A stretch of DNA of 34,183 bases from IMG/VR virus record IMGVR_UViG_3300045988_090145; one strand, 5' to 3'. The notes beneath the pieces were generated by a model that did not search any database, had not been told where the DNA came from, and was given only the letters and a program-made list of their open reading frames with translations. This document shows positions 1 through 31,803 of this stretch, one piece after another. This DNA is from a virus. The number at the start of each line of letters is the position of its first letter. The first letter of the stretch is position 1. A program made the position numbers and the translations under genes.

Positions 1-52
1 TGTGGTGGACAGTCGTAGTTATGGGGAGGCGCACCTCACCAAGTTCCTACGA
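1..52. repeat. 52-bp direct terminal repeat, identical to 34132..34183. Indicates circular closure or terminal redundancy of a complete genome.
   Basis: Bases 1..52 (tgtggtggacagtcgtagttatggggaggcgcacctcaccaagttcctacga) match 34132..34183 exactly. Confidence 0.9.
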
Positions 53-6558: not shown

Positions 6559-7254
6559 ATGAGTAAAAATACTATAGTAGGCTTTCGGCCGTCAGGTAGA
6601 TTGCATTTAGGGCATTATGTTAGCGTGATAAAGCCAGCAATAGAATACAAGGCAGATATCCTGATAGCTAAACACCATGCGCCACTGTCAGAACCTGAAT
6701 ATGAGGAGCGAGCATTGAGCGTACTCAGAATGTTTAAGTTGGGTAGTCAAGTTGTCGAGCAGAGATTAGATGTCGCTTTACTAGCTAAGCTGCTAGCCGT
6801 AACACCTAGCCACCTACTGAATGCTATGCCGCAGTATAAAGCTAAAGAAAAGACCGCGCTAATGTACATATATCCAGTGATGATGGCTCTAGATATTGCA
6901 GGTTACGATAGAGTAATCGTTGGCGAAGATCAGCGTCCTCATATCGAATTCGCAAGAGATATCCTGCCGCGGGTTGGATTGAAGTGTCCAGATCCAATTT
7001 ATACAAAATCCAAGATTATGGACTTAAGACATCCTGATCGTAAAATGAGTAAGTCTGAGCCAAAGTCGTGTTTATTCCTAGATGATGAAGATTATGAGCG
7101 CAAGATCATGAAGGCGGTCACTGACGTCAAAGGACTATCAAATTTGAGAAACATATACATAGAGTTGGGTGGTCGGTCTGATATTGAAAACATGAGTAAC
7201 TACGATCTAAAGCGAGCGATTGTAGAATTATATAAAAGTCTCAATCTTTACTAA
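6559..7254 (+). CDS. Tryptophanyl-tRNA synthetase homolog, C-terminally truncated (catalytic Rossmann domain only).
   Basis: Class-I aaRS signatures HIGH (RPSGRLHLGHY), KMSKS (exact), and the TrpRS GEDQ-x2-H motif (VIVGEDQRPHIEF). Collinear with bacterial TrpRS (GIQPSG-LTLGNY / VGEDQKQH / KMSKS), but at 231 aa versus ~330 aa it lacks the anticodon-binding domain. Confidence 0.75.
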   Translation: MSKNTIVGFRPSGRLHLGHYVSVIKPAIEYKADILIAKHHAPLSEPEYEERALSVLRMFKLGSQVVEQRLDVALLAKLLAVTPSHLLNAMPQYKAKEKTALMYIYPVMMALDIAGYDRVIVGEDQRPHIEFARDILPRVGLKCPDPIYTKSKIMDLRHPDRKMSKSEPKSCLFLDDEDYERKIMKAVTDVKGLSNLRNIYIELGGRSDIENMSNYDLKRAIVELYKSLNLY

Positions 7255-14053: not shown

Positions 14054-14368
14054 ATGGCAGAGAAAAAGACAACTGAGCTTACAGCCGAAGAGATTATCGC
14101 CAACGCTAAAAAAGAGGCTGAGAAGATTATCGCCAACGCAAAAGAAACTGCAACTAGCGGTGAAATCGTAAGCCGTAGCGTATCTAAGGAAGATATCATC
14201 GAAGCATACAACAGCGGATTAAGTCATCTAGAGGTTGCTAAGAAATTTTATGGTAATACAAACGACGACAATATGCAGAAGGTTATTGCAGTTATTGAAG
14301 AAGCAGTACCATCAGGGGACGACAAAGACTCAGAGGTTGAAGTCACTGATCCTTGGATTGGAGCTTAA
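14054..14368 (+). CDS. Hypothetical head protein (decoration/connector candidate).
   Basis: ATG 14054 after aagaagggaaacgat. Contains duplicated EEIIANAKKEAEKIIANAKE. 104 aa. Confidence 0.5.
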   Translation: MAEKKTTELTAEEIIANAKKEAEKIIANAKETATSGEIVSRSVSKEDIIEAYNSGLSHLEVAKKFYGNTNDDNMQKVIAVIEEAVPSGDDKDSEVEVTDPWIGA

Positions 14369-14374
14369 TAGATT

Positions 14375-14620
14375 ATGGACTGGACGAGAGAGGGCGATCT
14401 AACTAGATTACATAAGGTGTTTAATGACCCTCTTAAGTCCCGTCACGAGCGCAGATTAGCCCACGACACATTCAACAAGATATTACGCCAGCTAAAAGAT
14501 AAAAAACTCATCGAATTACGTCGTAGGCTAATCCGAGCCAACATTGCTGACGATAATGACGCCGTAGAGAGAATAACTGAAGAGATACACGAATACTCAC
14601 GGCGTGCAGGCTATAGATAG
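14375..14620 (+). CDS. Hypothetical protein.
   Basis: 81-aa basic ORF, last gene before a strong terminator. Confidence 0.45.
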   Translation: MDWTREGDLTRLHKVFNDPLKSRHERRLAHDTFNKILRQLKDKKLIELRRRLIRANIADDNDAVERITEEIHEYSRRAGYR

Positions 14621-14644
14621 CGACTACAGCATAAACATACAGAC

Positions 14645-14680
14645 CATTTCGTTGACGTGAACGAAATGGTTTTTTTGTTT
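14645..14680 (+). terminator. Rho-independent terminator.
   Basis: Perfect 11-bp stem accatttcgtt/aacgaaatggt with a 5-nt loop, followed by ttttttt. Confidence 0.85.
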
Positions 14681-14929
14681 GGCTTATGTTATAATAACCC
14701 TACAATTAAGCACGAAGTGTGACTCTAAAAAACGAGAGCGCGTTGTCATCCAAAAAAGAAGGAAGCGTGCGTCGCAGCGTTGTATAAGTAGCAATCTGAG
14801 GTGATCGTTTGAGATAAATACGAAGCCGCCCAAGTCAGTATGGAGCGAAGAACTAGGCCCTCTTGGTGACCAGACAACAGACGATAGCTCTTATCCAATT
14901 TAATAGTATTTTTACAATTTGGAGTGTTG

Positions 14930-14958
14930 TTGAGAGATTTGGGATTTGTGTGTATACT
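14930..14958 (+). promoter_or_regulatory. Putative sigma70-type promoter for the moron genes.
   Basis: TTGAGA, 17-bp spacer, TATACT, about 40 nt upstream of the 14997 start. Confidence 0.45.
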
Positions 14959-14996
14959 ATAGGTACTTTAGTAAGTAAATGGGAGGCTTTACTAAA

Positions 14997-15467
14997 ATGG
15001 TATCTAAGGACAAAATCATCAAAAGCACTATTGGTGCTGTTATTGGCGTAGCTGCAGTAGCAGGTATGGCTGGAGCTGCAAATAATAGTCAGCCACAGCA
15101 GACTATAGCGCCAGTAGTACAACCTGTAACATATTCAGACTGTAGAACGGAAGAAATACCGTTTGAAACACAGTACGAAGGTGAAACAGGTCAATATGGC
15201 TACACTGAAACTATAAAGCAACAAGGTGTAGCTGGTAGTAAAAAGATTTGTAAACCAAGCAAACCAGGGTATGAAGATAAGGTGGAGGTTATAACTCAAC
15301 CTGTAAACCACGTTATCGTTCGTACACCTAAACCTGCACCGCAACCAGTACAACAGCAATCACACTATCGTGTCGGAGCAATCTGCCGTGACGGTTGGCA
15401 ATCACATGCTACTGGAAGAGGAGCATGTTCACATCATGGTGGAGTAAGCGAGTGGCTGTATGAGTGA
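14997..15467 (+). CDS. Membrane-anchored DUF3761-domain protein.
   Basis: N-terminal TM/signal segment IIKSTIGAVIGVAAVAGMAGAA. C-terminal AICRDGWQSHATGRGACSHHGGVSEWLYE fits the DUF3761 consensus C-DG-x-S-x-S-x2-R-G-x-CS-HGGV-x-W. ATG 14997 follows gggagg. Confidence 0.6.
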   Translation: MVSKDKIIKSTIGAVIGVAAVAGMAGAANNSQPQQTIAPVVQPVTYSDCRTEEIPFETQYEGETGQYGYTETIKQQGVAGSKKICKPSKPGYEDKVEVITQPVNHVIVRTPKPAPQPVQQQSHYRVGAICRDGWQSHATGRGACSHHGGVSEWLYE

Positions 15468-15951
15468 TTGGCACGTGTGGCTTTTCTATGGCACCGCTGC
15501 ATTTATTTCTGTATATTCAGTCATAACCTGGAAACAAATAATGTGGCTATATACGCTGGCATCGCCATATGGAGTTGATGATAACGATGTTGCTATAAAG
15601 ATGTTTTCATGGAGCGCTCTGCGTCAGTTGGCTGCTAGTACCTTTTCCATACCGGCATTCATTTTGCTTGGTCAAAAATGTATAAGTAGTATTCCAACGG
15701 AGTTTGTTACTGTTCCATTTACTTTAGTTATTGCTACAGTAATATATACACTTGGATGTAGCTATTCAGCACCAGAAAAAGCATTTTATAGGCTCAAAAA
15801 GTATGGATACTTAGCAGAGGATGCAACTGGTAATGGGGGATGGATAGAATTTACCATTCGCCATTTTATGCAATATACCTATGGGATGGTCCTGTCCCTT
15901 ATTGGTATTATTGCAGTGTCTATATTTCTTCTGTATATAGCGTTATTCTAG
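15460..15951 (+). CDS. Polytopic membrane protein (hypothetical; exclusion/immunity candidate).
   Basis: 163 aa with about 4 predicted TM helices. Overlaps the upstream gene by 8 nt. Confidence 0.5.
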   Translation: MSDWHVWLFYGTAAFISVYSVITWKQIMWLYTLASPYGVDDNDVAIKMFSWSALRQLAASTFSIPAFILLGQKCISSIPTEFVTVPFTLVIATVIYTLGCSYSAPEKAFYRLKKYGYLAEDATGNGGWIEFTIRHFMQYTYGMVLSLIGIIAVSIFLLYIALF

Positions 15952-16511
15952 CGTGCTACACAAAAATGTTGCACTACAACCCTACCATCACCTACGCCAA
16001 TACCAGTATAGGTGTACTTGGGGTCGAGCATGGCAGCTTTGTGCGGCGGTGAACTAAGCCACCAATCTATAGATTGCTTTGTATCTGTTCCGCTATCGTT
16101 CCAAGTCAAGTTTTCGCTGGCGTTTGTGCAAGCGGCAACTTGAAGTCTCCTCATTTCTTCTGTAAGCGGTTGGTTCGTGTCTGGCATGTAGTGTCCGCGA
16201 TAATTCCTGGCTATCATGTCGTCGGCTTTCATTTGAGCGGTCTTAGATAAGTTTGGGTGCAGTTTTAGTGGTGCAACGCCGACTTTGGCTCGTTCAATAT
16301 TGACGGCGTTCAATATTGACAGTTCTGTCGGCGGTTCTATCTTTTTGCTATTAGATAATTTGTTGGTATTTTGAAACGAAGGCGATTCTACGACAGGGGT
16401 TGTCTTTGTTATCTCTGCATTACGTTGAGCGACAAATAAATAGGCAGCAACTGCGCCAACGACTACTGCGATGCTAACAAAAATGACAAGAATAAATTTA
16501 GTCTTTTTCAC
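15948..16511 (-). CDS. Secreted/membrane-anchored CAP (SCP/PR-1, YkwD-like) domain protein; the only minus-strand gene.
   Basis: Signal/TM MKKTKFILVIFVSIAVVVGAVAAYLFVA, then CAP-domain motifs (LN-VN-ERAK-G-APLK, HYMPD...ENL, IDWWLSSPPHKAAMLDP, YTGIGV). GTG start sits 6 nt after its own -10, which suggests a leaderless transcript. Confidence 0.65.
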   Translation of the reverse strand: MKKTKFILVIFVSIAVVVGAVAAYLFVAQRNAEITKTTPVVESPSFQNTNKLSNSKKIEPPTELSILNAVNIERAKVGVAPLKLHPNLSKTAQMKADDMIARNYRGHYMPDTNQPLTEEMRRLQVAACTNASENLTWNDSGTDTKQSIDWWLSSPPHKAAMLDPKYTYTGIGVGDGRVVVQHFCVAR

Positions 16512-16517
16512 GCCGAC

Positions 16518-16546
16518 AGTATAACTGAAATCATCAGATTTGTCAA
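16518..16546 (-). promoter_or_regulatory. Near-consensus sigma70 promoter for the CAP gene (minus strand).
   Basis: Reverse complement reads TTGACA, 17-bp spacer, TATACT, then gtcggcGTG (the start codon). Confidence 0.6.
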
Positions 16547-16581
16547 TAACACTCCAAGTTACAAAAAGGAGTGTTTTTCTT

Positions 16582-17751
16582 ATGCAAGGAAATGAATCAT
16601 ATCGTCAATACCTTCAGTACCACGCAAATAACCACCCGTCAGCAACCAAACGAGCAGAAGCTCAAGCCCTACTAAATGTTACTGGAGATGACGGTGGACT
16701 TAACGGCTACTTCCTAATGGGTAATGGCACTAATAATAGAGGTCAAACTGTCGGAGAGCAAAAGTCAAACGGTTACACTGCATCATCCCTCAACCGTTCA
16801 GTCAATCCATGGTGGATGAATTCATATGCTAACTGGCAACATAGTCAAAAACAGGGTGGCGCGAACCTCAACCTCGACCTCGGCGGAGGCAGAGGAGGCG
16901 GTGGCGGTGGCGGAATGGGCGGTGGTAACCGTGCCAGTGCCGCTCAGTTGGCAGAATATGACCAAGGTATTGGACAGCTAGAACACGGCTTAGGACGTAT
17001 AGATAATCAATTGGGTGTACGCCTAGGCAATATCAACAATCAGTACGCCACCAAAAAGAACGAATTAAAGAGTTCATGGAATAGGGCAGAAGGTCAATTC
17101 AACGACCAGACACGTCAAAATCAGCAACAGCGACGTACAAACATCAATAACATTAACGATCGCTCAGCAGTTGGCTTACGTGGCTTATTGCGCTCATTAG
17201 GAAGTATGGGTGCAGTAGGTTCAGACATGCAATTAGCAGGTCGCGCAGTTCAGAACCAAGCCAACCAGCAACGAACAGGTGCAGGACAGACTTACGCACA
17301 GAACCAAAAGCAAATCGACACCACATGGGGTCAGTTTAAGAATGATTACGCGGATGAAGACAAAAAGCTTAATGACTGGAAAGCAAACGAAGATAACGCC
17401 GCACGTCAGTCATCTCAAACTACACGCCAGAACCTACTAACCCAGTTGGCTCAGATGAAGAGCCAGAAAGCCGCCGCACAGGGCGCTAATGGTGCTAATG
17501 CCGCACGTGCAGACCTTGGACGAGCAAACGCTCTATCAAGCGAAATTGACAACCTAGGACGTCAGCAAAACACATACAGCGGTAATAAGGTCCAGTACAA
17601 CGCGAAAGACCTAGACAGCTACAAGGTAGAAGGTGATACAGCAGTTGGTGTTTCAGATCCACAAGCAGCAGGTAATGACCCAACACTAAACATCTACAAC
17701 ACACGTCTAAAACAAGAAGACGAGCGTAAACGTCAGAATCAATACCTGTAA
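16582..17751 (+). CDS. Gln/Asn/Gly-rich hypothetical protein (internal virion/ejection protein candidate).
   Basis: ATG after aaaaaggag. 389 aa with a GGGRGGGGGGGMGGG tract and QNQ-rich coiled-coil-like sequence. Sits directly upstream of the giant ORF. Confidence 0.55.
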   Translation: MQGNESYRQYLQYHANNHPSATKRAEAQALLNVTGDDGGLNGYFLMGNGTNNRGQTVGEQKSNGYTASSLNRSVNPWWMNSYANWQHSQKQGGANLNLDLGGGRGGGGGGGMGGGNRASAAQLAEYDQGIGQLEHGLGRIDNQLGVRLGNINNQYATKKNELKSSWNRAEGQFNDQTRQNQQQRRTNINNINDRSAVGLRGLLRSLGSMGAVGSDMQLAGRAVQNQANQQRTGAGQTYAQNQKQIDTTWGQFKNDYADEDKKLNDWKANEDNAARQSSQTTRQNLLTQLAQMKSQKAAAQGANGANAARADLGRANALSSEIDNLGRQQNTYSGNKVQYNAKDLDSYKVEGDTAVGVSDPQAAGNDPTLNIYNTRLKQEDERKRQNQYL

Positions 17752-17776: not shown

Positions 17777-20700
17777 ATGGACTTTTTCCAAAGAGTAGGC
17801 AACTTTTTTCAAGGAAAGGGCTGGGTAAGCGATGATGAACGTCGACGTAAAGAGCAACAAGTTCAAGCGCCAGTTCAACCACGCCCTCAGCCATTACAGC
17901 AAGTACAGCAACCTAACATTAACAGACTAAACGGTCTATCTGGTGTAAATACACCTGGGTTGGGTGGTGGTACTAATATATTCAGCCAAGCTCAGCAAAA
18001 AGTAAATCCTAATCCCCTTCAACAGGCTAATCAAGCAACACAACAGCTAAACCAAAATAATCAGCCAAAGCCATTAGTCCCAGAAAAGACTGTCAATGAC
18101 GCCCCTAAGGTACTAACCCCTCAAGGGCAACAAGATTGGGTAAACAAAGAAAACAAGCAGATCCAAATCCAGAATGTCATAAACAATCCTACTCAGGTAC
18201 TTAAAACTCAGGTCCAACAGCAACAACCAAAGCCAGCACCAGTAGCTATTCAACAACCCCAACAGCAGAATAGACCACAAATAGCCCCAAGTTTTGCTAA
18301 TCCTGGAAGAAATCCTTTATTTACCCAAAATCAGGACAGCTTAACCCGCGCCCTAGATATAGCAAAACAAGAGAGTGACAAATATAAGGCGGAGCAGGCA
18401 GCACGCAACGACAAACTAGACAACATTATGCGAGCAAGGGGTGTTAGCGAGCCAGAAATCGCTAAGAACCGCCAAGTACGTATTGACGCAGAGAACAGAG
18501 CTTATTTATCACAAGATAAGGCTAGACGCGATAGCAATATTGCACAGATGGCGGGACTGGCTACTTTACCAACGCGTTCAGTGGTTAGCTTCACTAAAGG
18601 TGCTATTGACGGTGCTGGTCGTACAGTTGGTGATTCAGGCGATAAACTATCTCTAGCTGTCGCAGACGCCATGTACGGCATTACTGGTGATGAATCATAT
18701 GACAAAATACGAAAATATATTGTAGAACAAGGTAGGCAACGTAACGCTCAATACGATCGAGACCTAGGCGTATTTAAGAAGAACGACACAGATGTTGCAA
18801 CAGCTTACGAGGCGGGTCAAAGCGCTCAAAGACTAGCTCAAGATATAGGTACAGGCGTAGCCACTGGCGGTACTATACCCGTAGCACGTCAGTTTGTAGA
18901 AAATGCGGCGGACTTTATTACTAACGCAAACGCTAAAGGTAAGAGCACACGTGAGATGTTGCCATATGCGTATGGTCACGCGGGAGTTCAGGCGTTAATA
19001 GAGAAGGCTGGGCTAGACAAGGTCTTATCGCCTATCGGCAAAAGAGGTCTGACTAAGTTTATAACAGGTGCTATAGCAGAAGGTTCGGAAGAAGCCGCCC
19101 AACAATTGGCAGAGAATGCAATTGCTAAGCATACATACGATCCTAACCGTAAATATGAAGAAGGCGTCCTTAAGAGCGGTCTTATGGGTGCGGTCCTTGG
19201 CGGTCCAGCTGGAATGGCTAATTTTGGTGCTATGCGACAGACTGGCAATCAACCATCGAGTGCAATGACTGCACGAATGAATCAAAATGAAGCTACTGGA
19301 AAACTAGAAAAAGAGGCTATAGCTCAACGTCAAGCACGTCAATCGTCGGACGACACCTCACTCAAACAAGCGGCAGAAGTAAATGTAGCTAATAATCAAA
19401 ACAATCAATTACATCCAATCCAATCAGTAAATGTAGCCCCAGCAGTAGAGAGTACTATACCTAACGCTAGCCCAGCACTAAAACAAGCCGTTACCCAGAA
19501 TATGTCAGATATTCAGCACGGTGATGTAAATGCTGTTGCCACACGCCAACAAACAACAGGAATACTAGAAAACTATCTGATAGAACAAGCTACAAAAGAC
19601 GTACAGAACTTAGTTAGCCCAGAAATGAAGTACAAGCTCAATCCAGAGCATGAAGCCCAGGTGATAGCTTATAACGAGCATATAACACGTTTACGACAAC
19701 GTGAAGAATACTTACGTGGTCAAGGAATGAGCGAAAATGCCCCAGCCATGATTAATCTACGTAAAGCTCAAGAGCAAGCTATATACGCCAGAGATCATAT
19801 CGGTGAAGTAGATGAGAACGGATTGAAGTATAAACTAAGCCCAGAACAAGAAACGTTCTTCAAGGACTCTAAGATCCGAGACGAAAATGGCAATCTTAAG
19901 ACTGTATACCACGGCACAGATGCAAAGTTTGATGTATTCAATCCAAACAATACATCATCTAATAAGTGGGGTGCTGGTAACTATTTAGCGTTTGATGAGA
20001 ACGCAGGCAAGAATTACGGTAAGAACGTAAAAGAGATGTATGCAAATATTACATCTCCAATTAGCGATAAACAAAAGACAATCTCCTTTGATCAGTATGA
20101 TGCCCTACATCGACGGGTAAATAACGGCGAGCCAGCATATCGTGAAGATTATGATATGTACGATAACGACATGGATTTGTTGTGGGATATTACTGACAAT
20201 GGGCAATGGAAAAAATATGCTCAAGATATCAAATACACCACTGGTAAAGATGGTTTGATTATGGATGATATGGCAATTACTTTTAGCCCAAATCAGACCA
20301 AATACACCAACAATCTCAACCCAACAGACAGCCCAGATATGCGGTTTAAGCGTCAGGCAGAGGCTAAAATACAGGAAATTCAACAATCAAAAGAGTTGCT
20401 AGCACGTCACCTACAACTGACAGGTGATGAGAACCTTGTATTCAATGAGTGGCAAAATGAAATGCAAAAAAGAGCATTGGGCTACTACGATCCAAAGACT
20501 GACACCATAAACCTAAACAAGCTTACAGAAGACACCCTAAACCACGAATTAGGACATAAATTACTTACACGTGTAGAAAATAAACAAGACCTATTAAACG
20601 CTATCCGTGAGTCTTATGGAGATGACTATTTAATAAACAAATATGGCAGTCAATATGGAAACGACTTGAACCTACTAGCAGAAGAGCAGCTAGCCGACGG

Positions 20701-23700
20701 ATTCAGTGATTACTACAATGGAAGACTAAATGGTGAAGATAAAGTGCGTCTAGGTACTAGATTAGGTATTCCTCAAAAAGTCTTAGCAATATATGACCGA
20801 ATTACTGAGGCTGTTATGGGGCTTGTTGGTAAACAAGACGCCATTAAACAATTCTACGCCCAAATGGAGACTGGGAAGTTCAGAACCAAACAACAAGTAC
20901 CTGGTGGTGATGGGCAGATTAGGACGATGAGTATTCAGCAAAGTAGAGACGGCACACCTGTTGTTGTGATAGAAAACGATATCCTTGCTGGCGTTCCCGC
21001 TAGAAATCGTGCACGAGTAATAAACGAATATTTCAAAGAAAACCTTCAAGGCAATAACTACGACCTGGACTACGGTAAGGACGGTACGGCTAGAATTAGC
21101 GCTAAGACACGTAATAAATACTTAGACCCGGGGCAGACTGTTGATGATCTGATTGCCAAGGGAAAGATGGCAGGTGAACTACCAGACATACTGCGTATTT
21201 CAAAGAAGGTAGGCTACGCCGCTGATACTAAAAATCATGGGTTCGCCGCCGAAGGATTCGAGTACAGACAAGCCATTGTAAAGATGGGCGAGAGTACATA
21301 TAAGGTCAGATTAAATGTTGGAATTAACAGTAAGGGAAAGCTTCTCTACGCCGTAAATGGCATAGAAAAAATCCCCGAATCCCATTACCGGGATTTAAGT
21401 GGGGATTCTTCTAGCTCTACTATATCAAATCAAAATGAGAATGTCAATACAGACAGCCGTTATCAACATCCTCTTCAAGAAACTATTAACGAAATGGAAG
21501 CCAACCCTAAGCCTAAGATGACTAGGGAATTAAGAGAGGCTATAGACGAGTTTATATATGAGAATATAGACCAGAATCTATTCCTAGAACATAATGACAC
21601 AAATATCCTCGGAAGTCATGGATTGACGTGGAGTATCCCACGCCTGCATGTAGACGACCTACGACACCACCTAGGAAAGGAGTTGGCTGGAGATCTACCG
21701 TCTAACTATAAACGCCGTACTGGTAAGCGAGATATCGATATAGTAGCTCAGGAGATGGGGTATGACGATATCGACGCATTTATCGATGAAATTAAGCGAG
21801 TAGCTGAAGCGCGACGCGCAGAAAGAGAGAGAAAGACCCTATTGGCAGAATGGCGTAGGGATCCAGATGTTATTCAAGAAGCTCAGAAGATGATTGCGGA
21901 GCGACACGCAGAAGAAGCTAAGGTAGAGGCTGAGAAGCAAAAGAAAATAGAAGAAGCGAAAGCGGAAGAAGAACGACGTACTGAAGAGGCTAAGGCAGAA
22001 AAAGAGAGAATTGAAAAGCAGCGGGCACTAGGAGAAATACTAAATAGAGGATTAGATGAAGGTCCAAGGCACAAAATAGCAGATATAGTACATAATGCTA
22101 GTGTAGCTACTGGTATTGATGAAAAAACCGTTGCAAAACAATTTGCTAAACTAGCCGAACAGAAAGGCTATGACATTACTGGAGAAAGGGCGCTACTAAA
22201 CACCAACGCCCGCGCTGGTAGTATGTTAGATGAAAATGGACGATTACGCCCAATAGACGAAATAGCACCAGAAGTAAAAGAAAAGATTAAACTACCTGGA
22301 GCGGAACACGCGGTCCCAGCACCTACAACTACTGCAAATACAGCTACCCACAATACACGACAGATGATTTATAAGGACGAGAAGGGTGCATACCATTCAT
22401 TCTATGAATACAGAAATATCTTTGGTAAATGGCAGCGAACAGGCGCCGAAGCACCAAAAGTAACTTCACCACTACAAAAGAAATTCATAGACGATATTAG
22501 ATCAGACAAGGCAGTCAATGATGAAGCTAAGCGTGCATTTGATGACGGTCTAGCCATTCAGTACATATGGAGAGAGAACTCTAAGGGTGTAAATGCTGAA
22601 CTAGTGAGTGCTTTTGATGGTTATATGCAAACTGGAGATAAAAAAGCATATCGTCCAAGTGATAAGCTAGTTACATTCGATCCAGACAAGCACTATATAG
22701 AATCTGGTAGAGTAGTGGACGCACAAACTGGTCAAATTCTAGGTAACTATATTGAAATGACCCCTGATGGCAACGTAACTATATATGCAGGTAAAAAGAA
22801 GATGAACCTGAATATGCACGATGTTGACTTCAGTAAAATCAAAGAAATGCGCTTTGGTGCAGGTCAAACATGGACTACTGAAGGAATAATAGACCGTATA
22901 ACAGGCTCATTGAGGCGAAGCAATAGCCTTGATTACTTTAAGAAGGGCGGCAATAAAACTAAAGAGGCGTTACTGAATATTATGTCTGAAACACCTCGTC
23001 AAGCTAATGCCGCCGCAGTAAAAGAAGGTAATGCTATCGGTAAACAGATAAAAGATTATCGCAAAAACTTGCTAAAACAAGCCAAAAAGCACGGTCCACT
23101 AAAGCGCCAAATGCTACAAGACGCCGTATATGTAATTGAACCATCACGTCCAAAACGTGGCGAAAAATCACCATCATACGATGAACGCTTGAAAGTATTT
23201 GAAGAAGTTTACGGAAAGAGTGCCGCCGAAGCTCTGGATCAATACAACAGCTTCTTACGTGCTGTATATAAGAACCTGCTAGCCCGCCAAAACGAAAAAA
23301 GGGTAGAGTTAGGTAAAGATCCAATTATGGAGCGTAAAGACTATATTACGCACCTAGGAGAAATGCAGTCTGGCAAGGGAGCTATCGCGGCTATGTATGG
23401 CGGTGCTAAGAACCTTCTGTCTGGCGGAGATGTGGCTATTGAATCTCGTCAATCACTACCAGCTAAATTAGCAGGTCGCACAGGACTATTCAAGCCAAGT
23501 CAAAAGTTTAATCAATTCGCTATGCAACGTGTAGGTGACGTAAAGCCAACAGATCCATTTACGCCACTAATGGAATACAGCAAGATAGCCCTACACAACA
23601 TTCATATGACAGATGCTATTACAATGAACCGCTCGCTGGAAGTAGCAGTGCGCGCAGCTAGCGAAGCACGACAAGAATTTGCAGGTAAGGGCACCAGTGG

Positions 23701-26308
23701 TATACAAAAGCTAGCTGACAGAGTAGACGCCCTGTATAATTCGGCTGCTTCTGGCAAGGTCAATGCTGAAGAGTTAACGCAAGTAAGAAATAAACTATAC
23801 GGATTAGAACGTGCAATTGGTCGAAAAATAGACGGTATACGAGAACTTAGTCGTCTAGTTAAAAAAGCTGACAAGTTTGGTGTAGATAAACTAGACGCAA
23901 AAGATATAAATGGTCTAAAAGAAACCACCAACAATATGTCTGAAAGTCTAGATAAGATGCTTAATGACGTAAACTTTATGAAGCTGATGTCTGATAGCGC
24001 AAACGGACTGACTCAATTTGTCGGATTTGTCCAAGAACATGCAAACCGACTGGCTGGGAAGACAGACCCATTCCAACGAGTCGTAAATGATACAGAACCA
24101 AGTAAAATACGAAAATTCGCAGATGCAACTGGTAGGGCGTTAATGAAGCAGGCGGCACTATCTAAGATTGTCGGCAATATGAATTCAGTGGTAGCTCAAA
24201 CAGCATCACTACCTGCCCTATTCTCTACAACCAGCCCTAAAGCATTGATACAGGCATTCAAGATAAAAAACCGCAAAGCCATACTGCAAAAGTCTGATGC
24301 TCTAGCCCTAAGGTATGCAGATGACAATCTGACGGATGACACCAAGTTTGAAAAAACTATGAAAACTGCTGGTATTCCTATGGAAGTAGTTGAAAGAGGC
24401 GTTATTGAATACACCTTCTTAGCTAAATACAATCAGGCAATCAATAATGGACTAAGCGACGCGGATGCAGTTAGATACGCAGAACGATTCATTAATGACA
24501 CGGTAACCTTACGCGATCAGATAAGCACCCCACGAGCATATAATAGGCTATGGTCTGCATCATTCTTACAGTTCACGCGAGAAGTGACACAACAGAACCG
24601 TTATGTATGGAACCAGATGTCTAATAAACAGAGGGTAGCACTCGCTGTTAATACGGCAATTGCATATAGTGCGATAGAAGCGCTAACTGGAAATAAGCCA
24701 GGGGTTGATCCATTAGGTACACTAATCGAGATTGTAGGTGACTGGTTGAGTGGTGGTGATGATGACGATAAAGACAATTCAGTGCAAGCTAAGCTAGAGC
24801 GTACAATCCAAAAAGTAGCTGGCCAGGCAATTACAGCTGCACCTATAGCTACAGCTATAGTTAATGCCGCAACAACAAAAGACGACCGCAAGAAGCTATT
24901 TGGTAAAGAGAGCAACTTAGGACGTTACGACGGTACAATACCAGTTGTTGATTTACCTCGTAAATTGATTGACACTAAGGGTAAATTGGATGAGGCAGCT
25001 AAAGCGCGTGAAGATGGTGATGACGATAAGGCAGAAGCAAAAACTAAAGACGCTATGTATAACATCCTAGGTCAATTACCAGCAGGTAGCCAATTAAAGA
25101 AAACTATTCAGGGTATTGCGGCAGCTCACTCTGGCGAAGTAAAAGACGGCAATGGCGAGACAAAGGTTGAGTTTGAAAAAGACAATCCATTCAATCTGGT
25201 CCAAGGCGCTCTATTCGGTAAAAATGCGCTAATACCAGTGCAAGTAGAAGAAGGAAAGAATTCGTGGGTCAATCTATTTAAGAAGGGTGGTCTAGTTGCT
25301 AACGCGTCTAATGGCCTACAAATAAATATGCCAACCAACAATAACCCGCAACAAAAACAAGCAACAGATAATCAGATAGACCTACAAGGGTTAAGTAAAA
25401 AAGAAGCCGCTTCAATTAAAAAGAAACTAAAGAAGGGCGACTATACATTCCAAGACGGATTGCTAGTAAACAAAAATGGTAACGTAGAAAAAGGTGTATA
25501 CAAAAAGCTTGCTCAATCTCAAGGACAAGGTGATGAAGCTTATCGCAACTGGATGAAGGCGTATGACATTGATAAAACGTCAACTATTAAAAAAGAGTTT
25601 ACTTCATTCAATGCAACATTAAATAAACTACAGAACGGTACAGAAAAGGTAGATAAAGCTAAAACTGCCGTCAATATGATGACTGGTAAATATAAAGACT
25701 TACCAGACTGGGTAAAAGAACGCTACTACAAAGAATCTGGATATACAAAGGATCAAATTGAGTACGGTGCTATGACATCTCATAACGAAGTAAGTCTGAT
25801 GGATAATTACTGGCGTCAAAAGGCTCAAGAATCATCACACGAGGATCTACTACAAGAACTAGCCAATGGCCGCCGAAAGAGTATTACAGGACAAATGTTT
25901 GCTAAGAATGGTGTAATCAACAAGCTGCGCGCTGAAGGTTACATCACTAAACAGGAAGCACGCGCCCTTAACGCTACTCAGTTTGATACCGACGGCAATA
26001 AGATAACCAAAGATACCTCAGGTGGCTCTGGACGCTCAGGTAGCGGAAGAGGTAGAGGACGAAGAGGTAGTAGCTCAAGCAGCGGCGGTAGCGCGTCTCC
26101 ACTATCTTCTGCAGTCACTAAGAGTATGGGTCTAACATCTTCTGCACCAAAAGCTAATGAATCATCCGCAAAAAACACAAGTATAAACCAAATCGGACAA
26201 AACCTAATAAGCAAGACTAATACTCAAAAACAGATAACTAATACATTAAAAAAGTGGAATGGTGCAAGCACCAGCAAAAACACGCGAATCCGCATTAAGA
26301 AAGCATAA
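17777..26308 (+). CDS. Giant 2843-aa polyvalent-type protein with a DT-like ADP-ribosyltransferase motif block and an HExxH zincin motif; probable injected virion protein.
   Basis: RBS attaggagggg. Q/P-rich N-terminal low complexity. VYHGTDAKFDVFNP...WGAGNYLAFDENAGKNYG resembles the diphtheria-toxin/ExoA YHGT...GNY NAD-binding motifs. LNHELGHKLL is an HExxH motif. EAK-rich coiled coil. C-terminal GGSGRSGSGRGRGRRGSSSSSGG tract. No internal stops over 8.5 kb. Confidence 0.75.
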   Translation: MDFFQRVGNFFQGKGWVSDDERRRKEQQVQAPVQPRPQPLQQVQQPNINRLNGLSGVNTPGLGGGTNIFSQAQQKVNPNPLQQANQATQQLNQNNQPKPLVPEKTVNDAPKVLTPQGQQDWVNKENKQIQIQNVINNPTQVLKTQVQQQQPKPAPVAIQQPQQQNRPQIAPSFANPGRNPLFTQNQDSLTRALDIAKQESDKYKAEQAARNDKLDNIMRARGVSEPEIAKNRQVRIDAENRAYLSQDKARRDSNIAQMAGLATLPTRSVVSFTKGAIDGAGRTVGDSGDKLSLAVADAMYGITGDESYDKIRKYIVEQGRQRNAQYDRDLGVFKKNDTDVATAYEAGQSAQRLAQDIGTGVATGGTIPVARQFVENAADFITNANAKGKSTREMLPYAYGHAGVQALIEKAGLDKVLSPIGKRGLTKFITGAIAEGSEEAAQQLAENAIAKHTYDPNRKYEEGVLKSGLMGAVLGGPAGMANFGAMRQTGNQPSSAMTARMNQNEATGKLEKEAIAQRQARQSSDDTSLKQAAEVNVANNQNNQLHPIQSVNVAPAVESTIPNASPALKQAVTQNMSDIQHGDVNAVATRQQTTGILENYLIEQATKDVQNLVSPEMKYKLNPEHEAQVIAYNEHITRLRQREEYLRGQGMSENAPAMINLRKAQEQAIYARDHIGEVDENGLKYKLSPEQETFFKDSKIRDENGNLKTVYHGTDAKFDVFNPNNTSSNKWGAGNYLAFDENAGKNYGKNVKEMYANITSPISDKQKTISFDQYDALHRRVNNGEPAYREDYDMYDNDMDLLWDITDNGQWKKYAQDIKYTTGKDGLIMDDMAITFSPNQTKYTNNLNPTDSPDMRFKRQAEAKIQEIQQSKELLARHLQLTGDENLVFNEWQNEMQKRALGYYDPKTDTINLNKLTEDTLNHELGHKLLTRVENKQDLLNAIRESYGDDYLINKYGSQYGNDLNLLAEEQLADGFSDYYNGRLNGEDKVRLGTRLGIPQKVLAIYDRITEAVMGLVGKQDAIKQFYAQMETGKFRTKQQVPGGDGQIRTMSIQQSRDGTPVVVIENDILAGVPARNRARVINEYFKENLQGNNYDLDYGKDGTARISAKTRNKYLDPGQTVDDLIAKGKMAGELPDILRISKKVGYAADTKNHGFAAEGFEYRQAIVKMGESTYKVRLNVGINSKGKLLYAVNGIEKIPESHYRDLSGDSSSSTISNQNENVNTDSRYQHPLQETINEMEANPKPKMTRELREAIDEFIYENIDQNLFLEHNDTNILGSHGLTWSIPRLHVDDLRHHLGKELAGDLPSNYKRRTGKRDIDIVAQEMGYDDIDAFIDEIKRVAEARRAERERKTLLAEWRRDPDVIQEAQKMIAERHAEEAKVEAEKQKKIEEAKAEEERRTEEAKAEKERIEKQRALGEILNRGLDEGPRHKIADIVHNASVATGIDEKTVAKQFAKLAEQKGYDITGERALLNTNARAGSMLDENGRLRPIDEIAPEVKEKIKLPGAEHAVPAPTTTANTATHNTRQMIYKDEKGAYHSFYEYRNIFGKWQRTGAEAPKVTSPLQKKFIDDIRSDKAVNDEAKRAFDDGLAIQYIWRENSKGVNAELVSAFDGYMQTGDKKAYRPSDKLVTFDPDKHYIESGRVVDAQTGQILGNYIEMTPDGNVTIYAGKKKMNLNMHDVDFSKIKEMRFGAGQTWTTEGIIDRITGSLRRSNSLDYFKKGGNKTKEALLNIMSETPRQANAAAVKEGNAIGKQIKDYRKNLLKQAKKHGPLKRQMLQDAVYVIEPSRPKRGEKSPSYDERLKVFEEVYGKSAAEALDQYNSFLRAVYKNLLARQNEKRVELGKDPIMERKDYITHLGEMQSGKGAIAAMYGGAKNLLSGGDVAIESRQSLPAKLAGRTGLFKPSQKFNQFAMQRVGDVKPTDPFTPLMEYSKIALHNIHMTDAITMNRSLEVAVRAASEARQEFAGKGTSGIQKLADRVDALYNSAASGKVNAEELTQVRNKLYGLERAIGRKIDGIRELSRLVKKADKFGVDKLDAKDINGLKETTNNMSESLDKMLNDVNFMKLMSDSANGLTQFVGFVQEHANRLAGKTDPFQRVVNDTEPSKIRKFADATGRALMKQAALSKIVGNMNSVVAQTASLPALFSTTSPKALIQAFKIKNRKAILQKSDALALRYADDNLTDDTKFEKTMKTAGIPMEVVERGVIEYTFLAKYNQAINNGLSDADAVRYAERFINDTVTLRDQISTPRAYNRLWSASFLQFTREVTQQNRYVWNQMSNKQRVALAVNTAIAYSAIEALTGNKPGVDPLGTLIEIVGDWLSGGDDDDKDNSVQAKLERTIQKVAGQAITAAPIATAIVNAATTKDDRKKLFGKESNLGRYDGTIPVVDLPRKLIDTKGKLDEAAKAREDGDDDKAEAKTKDAMYNILGQLPAGSQLKKTIQGIAAAHSGEVKDGNGETKVEFEKDNPFNLVQGALFGKNALIPVQVEEGKNSWVNLFKKGGLVANASNGLQINMPTNNNPQQKQATDNQIDLQGLSKKEAASIKKKLKKGDYTFQDGLLVNKNGNVEKGVYKKLAQSQGQGDEAYRNWMKAYDIDKTSTIKKEFTSFNATLNKLQNGTEKVDKAKTAVNMMTGKYKDLPDWVKERYYKESGYTKDQIEYGAMTSHNEVSLMDNYWRQKAQESSHEDLLQELANGRRKSITGQMFAKNGVINKLRAEGYITKQEARALNATQFDTDGNKITKDTSGGSGRSGSGRGRGRRGSSSSSGGSASPLSSAVTKSMGLTSSAPKANESSAKNTSINQIGQNLISKTNTQKQITNTLKKWNGASTSKNTRIRIKKA

Positions 26309-29942: not shown

Positions 29943-29943
29943 A

Positions 29944-30292
29944 CTACTTAACATACTCTAACACAATACTAACTTCTGAATTGCCCCAGGGGTAGCTACC
30001 TGATATTGTTACACTAGTATCGTCTATTGACGTTATTCCCGACTGGTGAGTATTCTCGACATAAGGCAGTGCTTGCTTTGTTAGATTATTTGATAAAGTG
30101 CCGCCAAGCCGCATATTGCCATAATATTTTATTAGTTCCCATCTACTAGTTAAGCCTTGAATACCATGAGCGAGCCTCGACGTATTGTTACCAGTCATAT
30201 TCACAGTGCCACGCACAACTTTACGATAAATAGGGCGACCGTCAATCCACTTGTGACCAGTGTCCTGTTCTTCAGTACTATATTTATTGCCA
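29944..30292 (-). other. Promoterless alternative tail-fibre C-terminal cassette, in-frame with the repeat on the minus strand.
   Basis: Minus-strand ORF reads ...SDKIDFTTMP-GNKYSTEEQ...SIVLEYVK (115 aa after the repeat). Same reading frame relative to the repeat as the + gene. Its stop abuts the + gene stop tail-to-tail (tagActa). Confidence 0.7.
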
Positions 30293-30318
30293 GGCATTGT
30301 CGTAAAGTCTATCTTGTC
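30293..30318. repeat. Right 26-bp inverted repeat (candidate inversion crossover site).
   Basis: ggcattgtcgtaaagtctatcttgtc is the reverse complement of 29559..29584 with one mismatch. Confidence 0.85.
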
Positions 30319-30371
30319 TGACCAATATATAAATGGTAAAATAGTACTATAAATTAACCAGTGTGATCTCA

Positions 30372-30414
30372 AGAAACGGAAGCACGTATAAAGACGAAAG
30401 GCTTCCGTTTTTTA
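30372..30414 (+). terminator. Rho-independent terminator after the invertible segment.
   Basis: Stem aaacggaagc/gcttccgttt followed by tttttat. Confidence 0.65.
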
Positions 30415-31794: not shown

Positions 31795-31803
31795 GGAGGA
31801 AAT

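What the first reader, a model, noticed from the sequence alone, without database searches (positions are those of the whole stretch)
14645..16581. Insulated moron island: DUF3761 membrane protein, 4-TM protein and an oppositely oriented CAP/SCP gene with its own consensus promoter
A strong terminator (14645..14680) precedes ~300 bp of noncoding DNA carrying candidate promoters: TGtTATAAT at 14688 and TTGAGA-17-TATACT at 14930. Three genes unrelated to virion structure follow. (1) A membrane-anchored DUF3761 protein. (2) A 4-TM protein. (3) On the opposite strand, the only minus-strand gene in the genome, a signal-peptide CAP/SCP (YkwD-like) protein. Gene 3 is driven by a near-perfect TTGACA-17-TATACT promoter whose -10 lies 6 nt from the GTG start, i.e. 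a probable leaderless mRNA. The + and - genes converge and share stop codons in a CTAG palindrome (15948..15951) with no terminator between them. Late-phase transcription would therefore run antisense through the CAP gene, while in a lysogen the CAP promoter would be free. This is a classic lysogenic-conversion layout; the secreted CAP protein may modify the cell surface or the host's interactions.
Basis: partly seen in the sequence, partly recalled or inferred. Interest (0 to 1): 0.6.

Follow-up and report, generated by a model that had tools for sequence, protein, structure and literature searches.

The report
Saccharibacteria prophage surface-protein moron island
A temperate phage of human oral Saccharibacteria (TM7) carries, between its head and tail genes, a terminator-flanked swap-in cassette that encodes membrane-anchored surface proteins, a CAP-domain gene with its own promoter, and a conserved, probably structured RNA; this most likely changes the surface of the lysogenic cell.

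Summary
The window is a complete 34-kb temperate phage of oral Candidatus Saccharibacteria. Integrated and circular copies both exist, and an almost identical prophage sits in the cultured strain Nanosynbacter TM7-076.

Comparing about 60 relatives refines the picture:
- **Variable slot.** The stretch between the head operon and gene 16582 holds shuffled cargo. This includes a DUF3761/G5 anchor protein, Excalibur or multi-pass membrane proteins, a Bro-N/PDC-S13 protein, an Mrr-like nuclease and sugar-modification genes.
- **Terminators on both sides.** The left one is at 14641-14672. The right hairpin at 16548-16581 contains the ribosome-binding site of gene 16582.
- **CAP is constant, not sporadic.** It is present in every relative. 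About half carry it on the minus strand and half on the plus strand, as alleles only 30-43% identical to the window's copy.
- **Shared CAP expression design.** Every allele has TTGACA, a 17-nt spacer, a -10 box, 6-8 nt and then the start codon, with no ribosome-binding site. This supports a leaderless, autonomous gene.
- **Conserved "noncoding" stretch.** It is the best-conserved DNA in the region and shows compensatory base-pair changes. It is a candidate new structured RNA.

The function (superinfection exclusion or surface remodelling, by analogy with PrgA) is inferred, not shown.

The parts
14641..14679 (+). Intrinsic terminator ending the head operon. The hairpin can form on both strands.
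   Evidence: 13-bp stem plus T-run. Folding energy -19.9 kcal/mol, z = -5.2 on the plus strand and -15.1, z = -4.2 on the minus strand. Compensatory stem changes among relatives.
14687..14695 (+). Extended -10 promoter TGtTATAAT with no conserved -35 box. It marks the start of the conserved element.
   Evidence: TGnTA(T/C)AAT is kept in all 39 distinct upstream sequences. It is kept even where a 281-aa gene is inserted upstream and the flanking sequence differs.
14702..14924 (+). Conserved noncoding element and candidate structured RNA. The predicted transcription start is near 14702 and the paired core spans 14710-14924.
   Evidence: - 92-96% nucleotide identity between clades over 14675-14794, against about 75% background.
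- Present once in every locus of the two close clades, whatever the cargo.
- 1-3 nt indels rule out coding.
- RNAalifold predicts 55 pairs, 4 of them compensatory. Seven G-U pairs fit only the plus strand.
- A held-out set is 99.7% paired and shows CG/UG/UA intermediates.
- No Rfam family matches.
14909..14941 (.). Left arm of a 33-nt inverted repeat. It contains the -35 box of the left inward-facing promoter.
   Evidence: The repeat pairs 14909-14941 with 16535-16567 at 79% complementarity. The 12-nt insertion that creates this arm is present in all loci with a minus-strand CAP and absent from all loci with a plus-strand CAP.
14930..14958 (+). Promoter-like site TTGAGA-17-TATACT upstream of the DUF3761 operon.
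   Evidence: Matches 10 of 12 consensus positions. The -10 box is conserved as TAT(A/G/C)CT. The -35 box exists only in loci with a minus-strand CAP.
14997..15467 (+). Membrane-anchored G5/DUF3761 protein, 156 aa. The revised start has the ribosome-binding site GGGAGG at 14981-14986.
   Evidence: - Pfam G5 23.6 bits (cut-off 23) and DUF3761 25.3 bits (cut-off 29).
- Homologues carry PF12587 hits.
- One Gly/Ala-rich N-terminal membrane segment.
- dN/dS 0.10.
- Present in 44 of 52 islands.
- A 52%-identical homologue lies in a non-phage region of a 980-kb contig, probably a Saccharibacteria chromosome.
15460..15951 (+). Multi-pass membrane protein, 163 aa, probably 4 membrane segments. Its start overlaps the DUF3761 stop by 8 nt.
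   Evidence: - No Pfam, PHROG or PADLOC family.
- Only homologues at 94% identity or more in the word-indexed search, and only two more distant relatives (53% and 45%) among 1.84 billion representatives.
- Present in 12 of 52 islands.
- dN/dS about 0.1, from few pairs.
- Hydropathy.
15948..16511 (-). Membrane-anchored extracellular CAP/SCP (YkwD-like) protein, 187 aa, with a GTG start.
   Evidence: - Pfam CAP E = 4e-14 and PHROG 16914.
- PDB 4IFA by sequence and by fold.
- The model shows a membrane helix at 4-34, a disordered linker at 35-60 and the CAP domain at 61-187.
- Invariant E73, H107, E133, H157, C128 and C184.
- dN/dS 0.14.
16518..16546 (-). CAP promoter TTGACA-17-TATACT. The -10 box ends 6 nt before the GTG start and there is no ribosome-binding site, a leaderless layout.
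   Evidence: Matches 11 of 12 consensus positions. The same layout is kept in all alleles and in both orientations, with -10 boxes such as TGcTATAAT, TGcTACAAT, TGgTATATA and TGcTAATAT followed by 6-8 nt and ATG or GTG. In contrast, 29 of 42 other genes have a ribosome-binding-site core.
16535..16567 (.). Right arm of the 33-nt inverted repeat. It contains the CAP -35 box and the 5' half of the right hairpin.
16548..16581 (+). Terminator-like hairpin plus U-run directly abutting ATG 16582. Its 3' arm contains the ribosome-binding site of gene 16582. It insulates the island on the right.
   Evidence: 8-bp stem, 12-nt loop, then UUUCUU, with folding energy -10 kcal/mol. Plus-CAP loci and the distant locus L057 carry a canonical version, AATCTCCTT-loop-AAGGAGATT followed by a T-run, at the same place. 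The stem co-varies as ACACTCC/GGAGTGT, GCTCC/GGAGC and TCTCCTT/AAGGAGA.

Best explanation
The region is the accessory ("moron" or lysogenic-conversion) slot of a family of temperate phages that infect human oral Candidatus Saccharibacteria. It lies between the head operon and the gene pair formed by 16582 and the 2,843-aa polyvalent protein.

**Layout, left to right**
1. A strong terminator closes the head operon.
2. An extended -10 promoter fires into a conserved element of about 220 nt that most likely folds as a multi-branched RNA.
3. A short operon encodes proteins displayed on the outer face of the membrane. In this phage they are a G5/DUF3761 anchor protein and a translationally coupled multi-pass membrane protein. 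In relatives the slot holds other cargo.
4. A CAP-domain gene forms a self-contained unit: a consensus promoter, no leader and no ribosome-binding site. It encodes an N-terminal membrane anchor, a flexible linker and a CAP domain with an intact His/Glu tetrad and a disulfide pair.
5. A terminator hairpin that contains the ribosome-binding site of gene 16582 keeps island transcription out of the downstream tail and lysis genes.

**Inferred mechanism**
- In the lysogen the island promoters stay active, so the cell surface carries these proteins.
- The CAP protein acts on the envelope or on a partner surface protein. The result is exclusion of related phages or a change in cell-surface interactions. 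The precedent is PrgA, the plasmid-encoded CAP protein that gives surface exclusion in Enterococcus.
- In this particular phage the two inward-facing promoters collide, so the DUF3761 operon and CAP may interfere with each other.

**Shown versus inferred**
- Shown: the anatomy, its conservation, the variability of the cargo, temperateness, the CAP fold and purifying selection.
- Inferred: expression from the prophage, leaderless translation, the RNA's function and the exclusion or remodelling role.
For: **Host and lifestyle**
- Prophages lie in Saccharibacteria and Nanosynbacter contigs of up to 714 kb. TM7-076 carries DUF3761 at 100%, the multi-pass protein at 98% and CAP at 97% identity.
- There is an integrase. 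One contig shows it followed by non-phage genes, another by the phage early genes.
- Prophages in oral TM7 were reported before (PMC7739484).

**Variable slot**
- 52 islands fall into 17 gene arrangements.
- Cargo includes Excalibur (4e-15), Mrr_cat, Bro-N, an NTP-transferase and a short-chain dehydrogenase, and the candidate defence family PDC-S13 (7.6e-82).

**Insulation**
- Left terminator and right terminator.
- Only two other plus-strand terminator-like sites were found in the rest of the genome by the scan, at 73-102 and 33283-33305.

**Autonomous leaderless CAP**
-. The layout is unusual for this genome.

**Surface location**
- N-terminal anchors, two invariant cysteines and an invariant His/Glu tetrad.

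**Real genes**
- dN/dS is 0.10-0.18 for all island genes.

**RNA element**
-.

**Precedent**
- The CAP domain of PrgA is among the fold matches. It is required for surface exclusion and for processing of PrgB (bioRxiv 10.1101/2020.06.18.156562).
- A DUF3761 homologue lies in a non-phage region rich in restriction-modification and TraG-like genes. This fits a gene that moves between host and phage.
Against: - No transcript or protein data exist, so prophage expression is an inference from promoter sequence and conservation.
- Genome-wide, consensus promoter matches are no more frequent than in shuffled sequence.
- CAP is present in every relative and DUF3761 in most. That pattern would also fit a function needed in the lytic cycle.
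- The island lies inside the late region. The extended -10 promoter could be a late promoter and the RNA a late leader.
- No repressor gene or operator was identified.
- The predicted RNA fold is no more stable than shuffled sequence (z = +0.6). Sequence diversity is low (mean column identity 91%). Three of the four compensatory pairs split along the same clade boundary, so they may reflect few events.
- GUG-initiated leaderless translation is inefficient in model bacteria (my own knowledge). Most alleles use ATG, but the window uses GTG.
- Bacterial CAP proteins have no established biochemical function. The fold match to PrgA is weak (E = 4e-3).
Confidence: 0.55

Rival explanations
1. The island is not a lysogeny module. 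It is the start of the second late operon. The extended -10 promoter and the conserved leader would drive late transcription, in the manner of lambda PR'/6S RNA with Q-type or RNA-mediated antitermination. CAP, DUF3761 and the membrane proteins would then serve the lytic cycle, for example envelope preparation, egress or blocking re-adsorption of progeny.
For: - CAP sits in the same slot in all relatives, including distant ones.
- The element is constant and lies directly after the head-operon terminator.
- Downstream genes need transcription across two terminators, and no other promoter has room before ATG 16582.
- No plus-strand terminator-like site was found between 16582 and 33283.
Against: - CAP always carries its own consensus promoter, even when co-oriented and only a few nucleotides after the upstream stop codon.
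- In half of the phages CAP points against late transcription.
- A terminator separates CAP from gene 16582 in the co-oriented loci.
- The cargo is typical prophage cargo: a candidate defence gene, a nuclease and sugar-modification genes.
- The lysis genes are elsewhere, at 30416-32061.
Confidence: 0.2
2. The conserved 220-nt stretch is not an RNA gene. It would be a DNA-level element: a homogenised recombination linker that lets cassettes swap between co-resident phages, or a protein-binding regulatory region. The apparent base-pairing would be incidental.
For: - It forms the left boundary of the variable slot in every relative.
- The fold is no more stable than shuffled sequence.
- It contains repeated GCGTTGT(C/A) motifs, seen by eye in the sequence.
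- Low sequence diversity limits the power of covariation tests.
- It was not detected in distant relatives.
Against: - Ten predicted pairs vary. Four change on both sides and four change in a wobble-compatible way on one side. Only 3 of 1,649 cells are unpaired, and shifted-register controls give 0-1 compensatory pairs.
- Held-out sequences keep 99.7% pairing and show C-G/U-G/U-A intermediates.
- Seven G-U pairs make the fold specific to the plus strand.
- A conserved extended -10 box sits exactly at its 5' edge.
Confidence: 0.3
3. The segment between the 33-nt inverted repeats (14909-14941 and 16535-16567) is an actively invertible or mobile cassette. The tyrosine recombinase would flip it to switch which genes each outside context reads.
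For: - The inverted repeat brackets the three genes.
- The left arm co-occurs perfectly with the minus-strand CAP type.
- The same genome has a proven invertible tail-fibre segment and a tyrosine recombinase.
Against: - All 26 islands with a minus-strand CAP have the same orientation. The tail-fibre segment, in contrast, shows both states and contig breaks at its repeat.
- The arms are only 79% complementary.
- Plus-strand CAP alleles are 30-43% identical to the window's CAP and keep DUF3761 in the forward orientation. The orientation difference is therefore an old allele replacement, not a flip.
Confidence: 0.05

Closest known systems
Morons of lambdoid phages (the HK97/lambda concept of Juhala and Hendrix: a promoter, a gene and a terminator inserted between late genes)
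   Same: - An autonomous transcription unit inside the late region, flanked by terminators.
- Presence, absence and replacement among otherwise near-identical genomes.
- Cargo that benefits the lysogen.
   Different: - The CAP unit is never absent in this family. Only its allele and orientation change.
- The slot also carries a constant RNA-like element.
- The host belongs to the Candidate Phyla Radiation.
- Prophage expression has not been shown.
The immI/sieA region and gtrABC of Salmonella phage P22 (PMC10883804)
   Same: - A temperate phage whose capsid protein resembles those of short-tailed (podovirus-type) phages.
- Prophage-expressed exclusion and surface-modifying genes.
- P22's immI and sieA genes lie among its late genes and immI includes convergent and antisense transcription (my own knowledge).
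- One distant relative of the window phage carries a sugar-modification cluster in the slot.
   Different: - No sequence or fold relationship to SieA, Mnt, Arc, Ant or Gtr proteins.
- Here the proteins are single-anchor exoproteins, and no exclusion phenotype has been shown.
PrgA (Sea1), the surface-exclusion protein of Enterococcus plasmid pCF10 (PDB 6Z9K/6Z9L; bioRxiv 10.1101/2020.06.18.156562)
   Same: - Encoded by a mobile element.
- Displays a CAP domain outside the cell.
- The metal-binding histidines are conserved.
- It provides a precedent for CAP-dependent exclusion and processing of a partner surface protein.
   Different: - PrgA is more than 800 aa, with a coiled-coil stalk and an LPXTG wall anchor. 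The phage protein is 187 aa with an N-terminal membrane anchor.
- The fold match is weak (E = 4e-3, TM-score 0.37).
- The Ser-His dyad is adjacent in PrgA, whereas here S154 and H157 are three residues apart.
- No partner protein has been identified.
Bacterial YkwD/SCP-type CAP proteins (PDB 4IFA from Bacillus anthracis, 4H0A SAV1118, Borrelia BB0689 4D53) and the phage CAP proteins of PHROG 16914 (Bacillus phages Slash, Staley, Stills)
   Same: Best sequence and fold matches, the same tetrad and an extracellular location.
   Different: - The Bacillus phage proteins add a LysM domain. [quoted passage not shown]
- The family here has a conserved leaderless promoter layout and a fixed genomic slot.
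The leaderless lambda cI mRNA from PRM (my own knowledge)
   Same: A prophage-expressed gene whose transcript would begin at the start codon, with no ribosome-binding site.
   Different: The product here is an exported protein, not a repressor. The transcription start is predicted, not mapped. The window allele starts with GTG.

Membership tests
CAP/SCP superfamily (Pfam PF00188) | Significant match to the family profile above the curated cut-off | tested here: met
   53.8 bits against a cut-off of 21.1, E = 4.4e-14. All 44 homologue clusters carry PF00188.
CAP/SCP superfamily (Pfam PF00188) | Alpha-beta-alpha sandwich fold | tested here: met
   In the AlphaFold2 model the domain at residues 61-187 has pLDDT 97-99. 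Foldseek matches 4IFA (6e-10), 4H0A, 4D53, GAPR-1 and PR-1.
CAP/SCP superfamily (Pfam PF00188) | Conserved His/Glu tetrad in the central cavity | tested here: met
   E73, H107, E133 and H157 are invariant in 32 sequences that go down to 36% identity. H107, E133 and H157 align with the corresponding H, E and H of 4IFA.
CAP/SCP superfamily (Pfam PF00188) | Secreted or extracellular location | tested here: inconclusive
   There is an N-terminal hydrophobic helix (Kyte-Doolittle 2.83; model helix 4-34) and two invariant cysteines. No dedicated signal-peptide predictor was run and there is no experiment.
Moron (autonomous accessory unit in a phage late region) | Own promoter | tested here: inconclusive
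   A consensus promoter is conserved in five divergent alleles. There are no transcription data, and consensus matches alone are not above chance.
Moron (autonomous accessory unit in a phage late region) | Own terminator or insulation from neighbouring operons | tested here: met
   Terminators lie at 14641-14679 and 16548-16581. A canonical terminator follows CAP in the co-oriented loci.
Moron (autonomous accessory unit in a phage late region) | Present in some and absent from other closely related phages | tested here: not met
   Not met for CAP, which is present in all relatives covering the slot. Met for the multi-pass protein (12 of 52 islands), the Excalibur gene, PDC-S13, the Mrr-like nuclease and others, and for DUF3761 (44 of 52).
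DUF3761 (PF12587) and G5 (PF07501) | Profile match above the gathering score | tested here: inconclusive
   DUF3761 scores 25.3 bits against 29 and matches only the C-terminal 30 residues. G5 scores 23.6 against 23. Homologues have precomputed PF12587 hits and some have PF07501 hits.
Leaderless mRNA | Transcription starts at, or within a few nucleotides of, the start codon, with no ribosome-binding site | not testable with these tools
   The sequence is compatible: the -10 box ends 6-8 nt before the start codon in all alleles and there is no ribosome-binding-site core. The transcription start must be mapped experimentally.
Superinfection or surface exclusion proteins (Sie, Ltp, PrgA) | Expression in the lysogen reduces entry of related elements | not testable with these tools
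   Only analogy: a membrane-anchored exoprotein, a CAP fold shared with PrgA and allelic diversity.
Known RNA families (Rfam 15) | Covariance-model match | tested here: not met
   No match at the gathering score anywhere in the window. The only matches with E up to 1 in 14300-16900 are the terminator hairpin scoring as a miRNA family. No tRNA or tmRNA.
Structured noncoding RNA (generic) | Base pairs maintained by compensatory changes | tested here: inconclusive
   Four compensatory and four wobble-type pairs, with 99.8% and 99.7% of cells paired in two sequence sets. Shifted-register controls give 0-1 compensatory pairs. Diversity is low and the predicted fold is no more stable than shuffled sequence.

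The most novel reading that the evidence does not exclude
The island is a prophage-encoded surface-remodelling system of an episymbiotic bacterium from the Candidate Phyla Radiation.
- A constitutively expressed, leaderless, membrane-tethered CAP protein would act with interchangeable partner exoproteins (G5/DUF3761, Excalibur, multi-pass proteins) to process or mask envelope structures.
- That would exclude related phages and, as a side effect, alter attachment of the Saccharibacteria cell to its Actinomyces or Schaalia host. It might contribute to strain-level host-range differences such as those reported for TM7-076.
- The adjacent element of about 220 nt would be a new class of structured phage RNA that controls this module or the passage of late transcription through it.
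Probability: 0.15. Interest if true: 0.85.

Novelty: new variant of a known kind. Interest (0 to 1): 0.6.

Why it matters
Saccharibacteria live attached to other bacteria and depend on their cell surface for everything they do. According to a 2026 paper (PMC13578794), no phage that directly targets CPR bacteria had been isolated or characterised before the host-encoded prophage reported there.

Here a widespread family of temperate phages of oral Saccharibacteria carries a dedicated, insulated slot for surface proteins, defence-like genes and sugar-modification genes. The same prophage is present in a strain that can be grown (TM7-076).

This makes three questions directly testable:
- whether prophages change the surface, phage immunity or host range of these episymbionts;
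- what a bacterial CAP-domain protein does, for which there is little functional evidence so far;
- whether leaderless translation and a new structured RNA are used for prophage gene control in this phylum.

Tried and rejected
- **DNA search against deposited phages.** Nothing was found. Relatives came only from protein-guided scans.
- **Butyrivibrio phages Bo-Finn and Arian.** They have a minus-strand CAP gene at a similar coordinate but are unrelated phages with tape-measure and major-tail genes. The position is a coincidence.
- **Minus-strand ORF 14746-14898 inside the conserved element.** Rejected because 1-3 nt indels in A-runs shift the frame and the ORF length varies from 42 to 73 aa.
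- **Known RNA families, tRNA and tmRNA.** None.
- **Covariance-model search for the element in distant relatives** (L057-L064, L105). Nothing was found, so covariation could not be strengthened with deeper divergence.
- **Scan of viral contigs with a 20-nt core of the element.** Only the same phage family, one copy per contig.
- **Homology between the window's multi-pass protein and the 162-aa multi-pass protein that replaces it in other islands.** None detectable.
- **PADLOC on the three island proteins.** No hit.
- **Gene-wide positive selection.** Not seen; dN/dS is 0.10-0.18.
- **Active inversion of the island.** Rejected (see rival explanations).
- **Literature.** Searches for YkwD or CAP-domain functions in phages, and for leaderless genes in Saccharibacteria, returned nothing informative.

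Full report
**1. What the window is**

The 34,183-nt window carries small and large terminase subunits and a major capsid protein of PHROG 1357. The capsid protein is about 35% identical to those of Bacillus podophages Page and Pony. The window also encodes a 2,843-aa protein with ART-PolyVal and PBECR3 domains, an Amidase_5/ZoocinA_TRD endolysin and a tyrosine integrase. Its first and last 52 nt are identical, so it is a complete genome with a terminal repeat.

A capsid-guided scan of species-representative genomes found it only in Candidatus Saccharibacteria and Nanosynbacter assemblies from the human mouth. Some of these contigs reach 164-714 kb, and one belongs to the cultured strain TM7-076.

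The integrase is followed by non-phage genes (YetF/DUF421) in one metagenomic contig and by the phage's own early genes in a 34,250-nt contig. I read these as an integrated and a circular or permuted copy. The phage is therefore temperate and active. Prophages in oral TM7 were reported by Shaiber et al. (PMC7739484). The paper describing TM7-076 does not mention one (PMC9040727).

**2. Check of the observation**

All the described sequence features are present at, or within a few nucleotides of, the stated coordinates. Details and five corrections are in the observation check. The main ones are:
- the DUF3761 gene probably starts at 14997, after a GGGAGG ribosome-binding site;
- its DUF3761 Pfam score is sub-threshold, while G5 is just above threshold;
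- a second minus-strand coding segment exists in the genome, as a silent tail-fibre cassette.

Consensus promoter matches are not enriched genome-wide. The case for the promoters therefore rests on comparison with relatives.

**3. Comparison with relatives**

Sixty-four IMG/VR loci, ten genome loci and several metagenome contigs share the head genes at 88-99% capsid-protein identity in two close clades, and at 51-63% in distant relatives. I extracted the stretch between the homologues of gene 14375 and gene 16582 from 52 islands. They fall into 17 gene arrangements.

Constant parts:
- the terminator;
- a noncoding element of about 250 nt;
- a CAP gene immediately upstream of gene 16582.

Frequent part:
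- the G5/DUF3761 anchor protein, in 44 of 52 islands.

Variable parts:
- a 105-125-aa membrane-anchored Excalibur protein (28 islands);
- the window's 163-aa multi-pass protein (12 islands);
- an unrelated 162-aa multi-pass protein (3 islands);
- a 281-aa Bro-N protein that matches the candidate defence family PDC-S13 at 7.6e-82;
- a membrane-anchored Mrr-like nuclease;
- a 230-aa minus-strand protein;
- a 215-aa protein with an N-terminal hydrophobic segment;
- in distant relatives, a cluster with a sugar-nucleotidyltransferase, a short-chain dehydrogenase and a 336-364-aa protein without Pfam hits.

It supports the idea of an accessory slot.

**4. The CAP gene**

CAP is present in every relative that covers the slot. 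In 26 islands it lies on the minus strand, at 48-99% identity to the window copy across the wider set of relatives. In 26 it lies on the plus strand, at 30-43% identity. Both states occur within the clade whose capsid proteins are 99% identical, so alleles are exchanged by recombination.

All alleles share one expression design: TTGACA (TTGACT in L105, TTGATA in one plus-strand locus), a 17-nt spacer and a -10 box that often has the TGn extension. After 6-8 nt comes ATG or GTG, with no ribosome-binding site. The design holds even when the gene follows another gene on the same strand, where the promoter begins a few nucleotides after the upstream stop codon. By contrast, 29 of 42 other genes in the window have a ribosome-binding-site core.

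The protein has a very hydrophobic N-terminal helix, a disordered and hypervariable linker, and a CAP domain modelled at pLDDT 97-99. E73, H107, E133 and H157 (the CAP tetrad), C128 and C184 are invariant down to 36% identity. The best structural matches are bacterial SCP proteins 4IFA and 4H0A, Borrelia BB0689 and GAPR-1. The CAP domain of Enterococcus PrgA also appears. All island genes are under purifying selection, with dN/dS of 0.10-0.18.

**5. Insulation on both sides**

The left terminator is strong, and its stem co-varies among relatives.

On the right, every relative has a hairpin plus U-run that ends directly at the ATG of gene 16582. The 3' arm of the hairpin contains that gene's ribosome-binding site:
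- In co-oriented loci it is a canonical terminator with an 11-bp stem, a 4-nt loop and a folding energy of -15 kcal/mol.
- In the window it has an 8-bp stem, a 12-nt loop and a folding energy of -10 kcal/mol.
- The stem sequence differs between island types while pairing is kept.

Such a terminator is what a lysogen would need to keep constitutive island transcription out of the polyvalent-protein, tail and lysis genes. It also means that late transcription must read through two terminators. I found no candidate antiterminator for this.

**6. The noncoding stretch**

Between the clades, 14675-14794 is 92-96% identical, against about 75% for the flanking coding DNA. The element occurs exactly once in every locus of both clades, whatever cargo follows, including loci where the next gene is on the other strand. 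It starts exactly at a conserved extended -10 box. Small indels exclude a coding function.

RNAalifold predicts eight helices. One is a 14-pair long-range helix and another is a closing helix (14723-14729 with 14918-14924). Four pairs change on both sides, four change by wobble only, and seven G-U pairs make the fold specific to the plus strand. In a held-out set of 19 distinct sequences 99.7% of cells stay paired. Two pairs show C-G, U-G and U-A states.

Against this:
- the fold energy is ordinary;
- diversity is low;
- no homologue was found in distant relatives;
- no Rfam family matches.

I rate a functional structured RNA at about 0.65 and a purely DNA-level role at about 0.3. Its function is open. 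It could be a stand-alone small RNA, a leader that controls the cargo operon, or an element involved in reading through the island.

**7. The inverted repeat**

A 33-nt inverted repeat (14909-14941 and 16535-16567) places near-identical promoter sequences at both ends of the island, facing inward. The 12-nt insertion that creates the left copy is present in all minus-CAP loci and absent from all plus-CAP loci. The left promoter therefore looks like a duplicate of the minus-type CAP promoter.

All 26 minus-type islands have the same orientation. The tail-fibre cassette of the same phages, in contrast, shows both orientations and contig breaks at its repeat. The island is therefore not an active inversion switch.

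In the window, the DUF3761 operon and CAP are transcribed towards each other with overlapping stop codons and no terminator between them. Mutual interference is likely but is specific to this island type.

**8. Mechanism**

- **Shown:** the anatomy, its conservation, the variable cargo, temperateness, the CAP fold and motif, and purifying selection.
- **Inferred, probability about 0.55-0.6:** the island is expressed from the prophage and places anchored proteins on the outer face of the membrane.
- **Inferred, about 0.3:** the CAP protein mediates exclusion of related phages or remodels the surface by acting on a partner protein. PrgA does this for plasmid pCF10, where the CAP active site is needed for surface exclusion and PrgB processing.
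- **Main rival, about 0.2:** these are lytic-cycle functions at the head of a second late operon.

A 52%-identical DUF3761/G5 homologue lies in a non-phage region of a 980-kb contig, probably a Saccharibacteria chromosome, next to TraG-like and restriction-modification genes. This fits a gene that moves between host and phage.

**9. Novelty and score**

Moron slots, leaderless prophage genes and exclusion proteins are known kinds. What is new:
- the host phylum;
- a near-core CAP unit whose alleles and orientation are swapped while its leaderless promoter design is kept;
- the two-sided insulation, with a terminator that doubles as a ribosome-binding-site hairpin;
- the candidate RNA.

I file it as a new variant of a known kind, with interest 0.6. 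A cultured lysogen makes every inference above testable.

Noticed in passing
window 29103-30372 (inverted repeats 29559-29584 and 30293-30318): Invertible tail-fibre cassette, like the G segment of phage Mu.
- The plus-strand gene 29103-29942 and the minus-strand ORF 29944-30372 share the peptide DKIDFTTMP at a 26-nt inverted repeat (96% complementary).
- Related contigs show both orientations: L194 against the window, and L189/L190 against L193.
- Eight contigs break exactly at the repeat.
- This looks like a host-range switch in a Saccharibacteria phage. The recombinase is unidentified; the tyrosine recombinase at 32993-33991 is a candidate.
   Followed up: yes
window 1-52 and 34132-34183: An identical 52-nt direct repeat sits at both ends of the window. 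This indicates a complete genome (terminal repeat or circular overlap). The integration site probably lies just after the integrase gene, because non-phage genes follow it in L111.
   Followed up: partly
window 33988-34016, 73-102 and 121-150: A near-consensus promoter (TTGACA-17-TATACT with an upstream TG) lies right after the integrase gene. Two strong terminator hairpins follow within about 150-200 nt across the genome ends. This could produce a short noncoding transcript over the attachment region.
   Followed up: no
window 6559-7254: A 231-aa phage protein matches part of the class I Trp/Tyr tRNA-synthetase domain (PF00579, E = 9e-27).
   Followed up: no
window 17777-26308: A 2,843-aa polyvalent protein with ART-PolyVal and PBECR3 domains lies directly downstream of the island and gene 16582. 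Its N-terminus is only about 50% identical between clades whose capsid proteins are about 89% identical.
   Followed up: no
L005, L011, L016, L021-L023, L026 (insert between the gene 14375 homologue and the conserved element); L046, L055; L105 11726-15400: The slot in relatives carries different cargo:
- a 281-aa Bro-N protein matching the PADLOC candidate defence family PDC-S13 (7.6e-82);
- a membrane-anchored Mrr-like nuclease;
- in a distant, more GC-rich relative, a cluster with a sugar-nucleotidyltransferase and a short-chain dehydrogenase.
   Followed up: partly
L057 12470-12660: A distant relative has its own extended -10 promoter (TGCTATAAT) followed by about 190 nt of noncoding sequence upstream of its CAP promoter. 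The covariance model does not detect it, but it may be an analogous RNA.
   Followed up: partly
window 30814-31794: The endolysin combines Amidase_5 with a zoocin A target-recognition domain. This may hint at the peptidoglycan cross-bridge type of the Saccharibacteria host.
   Followed up: no
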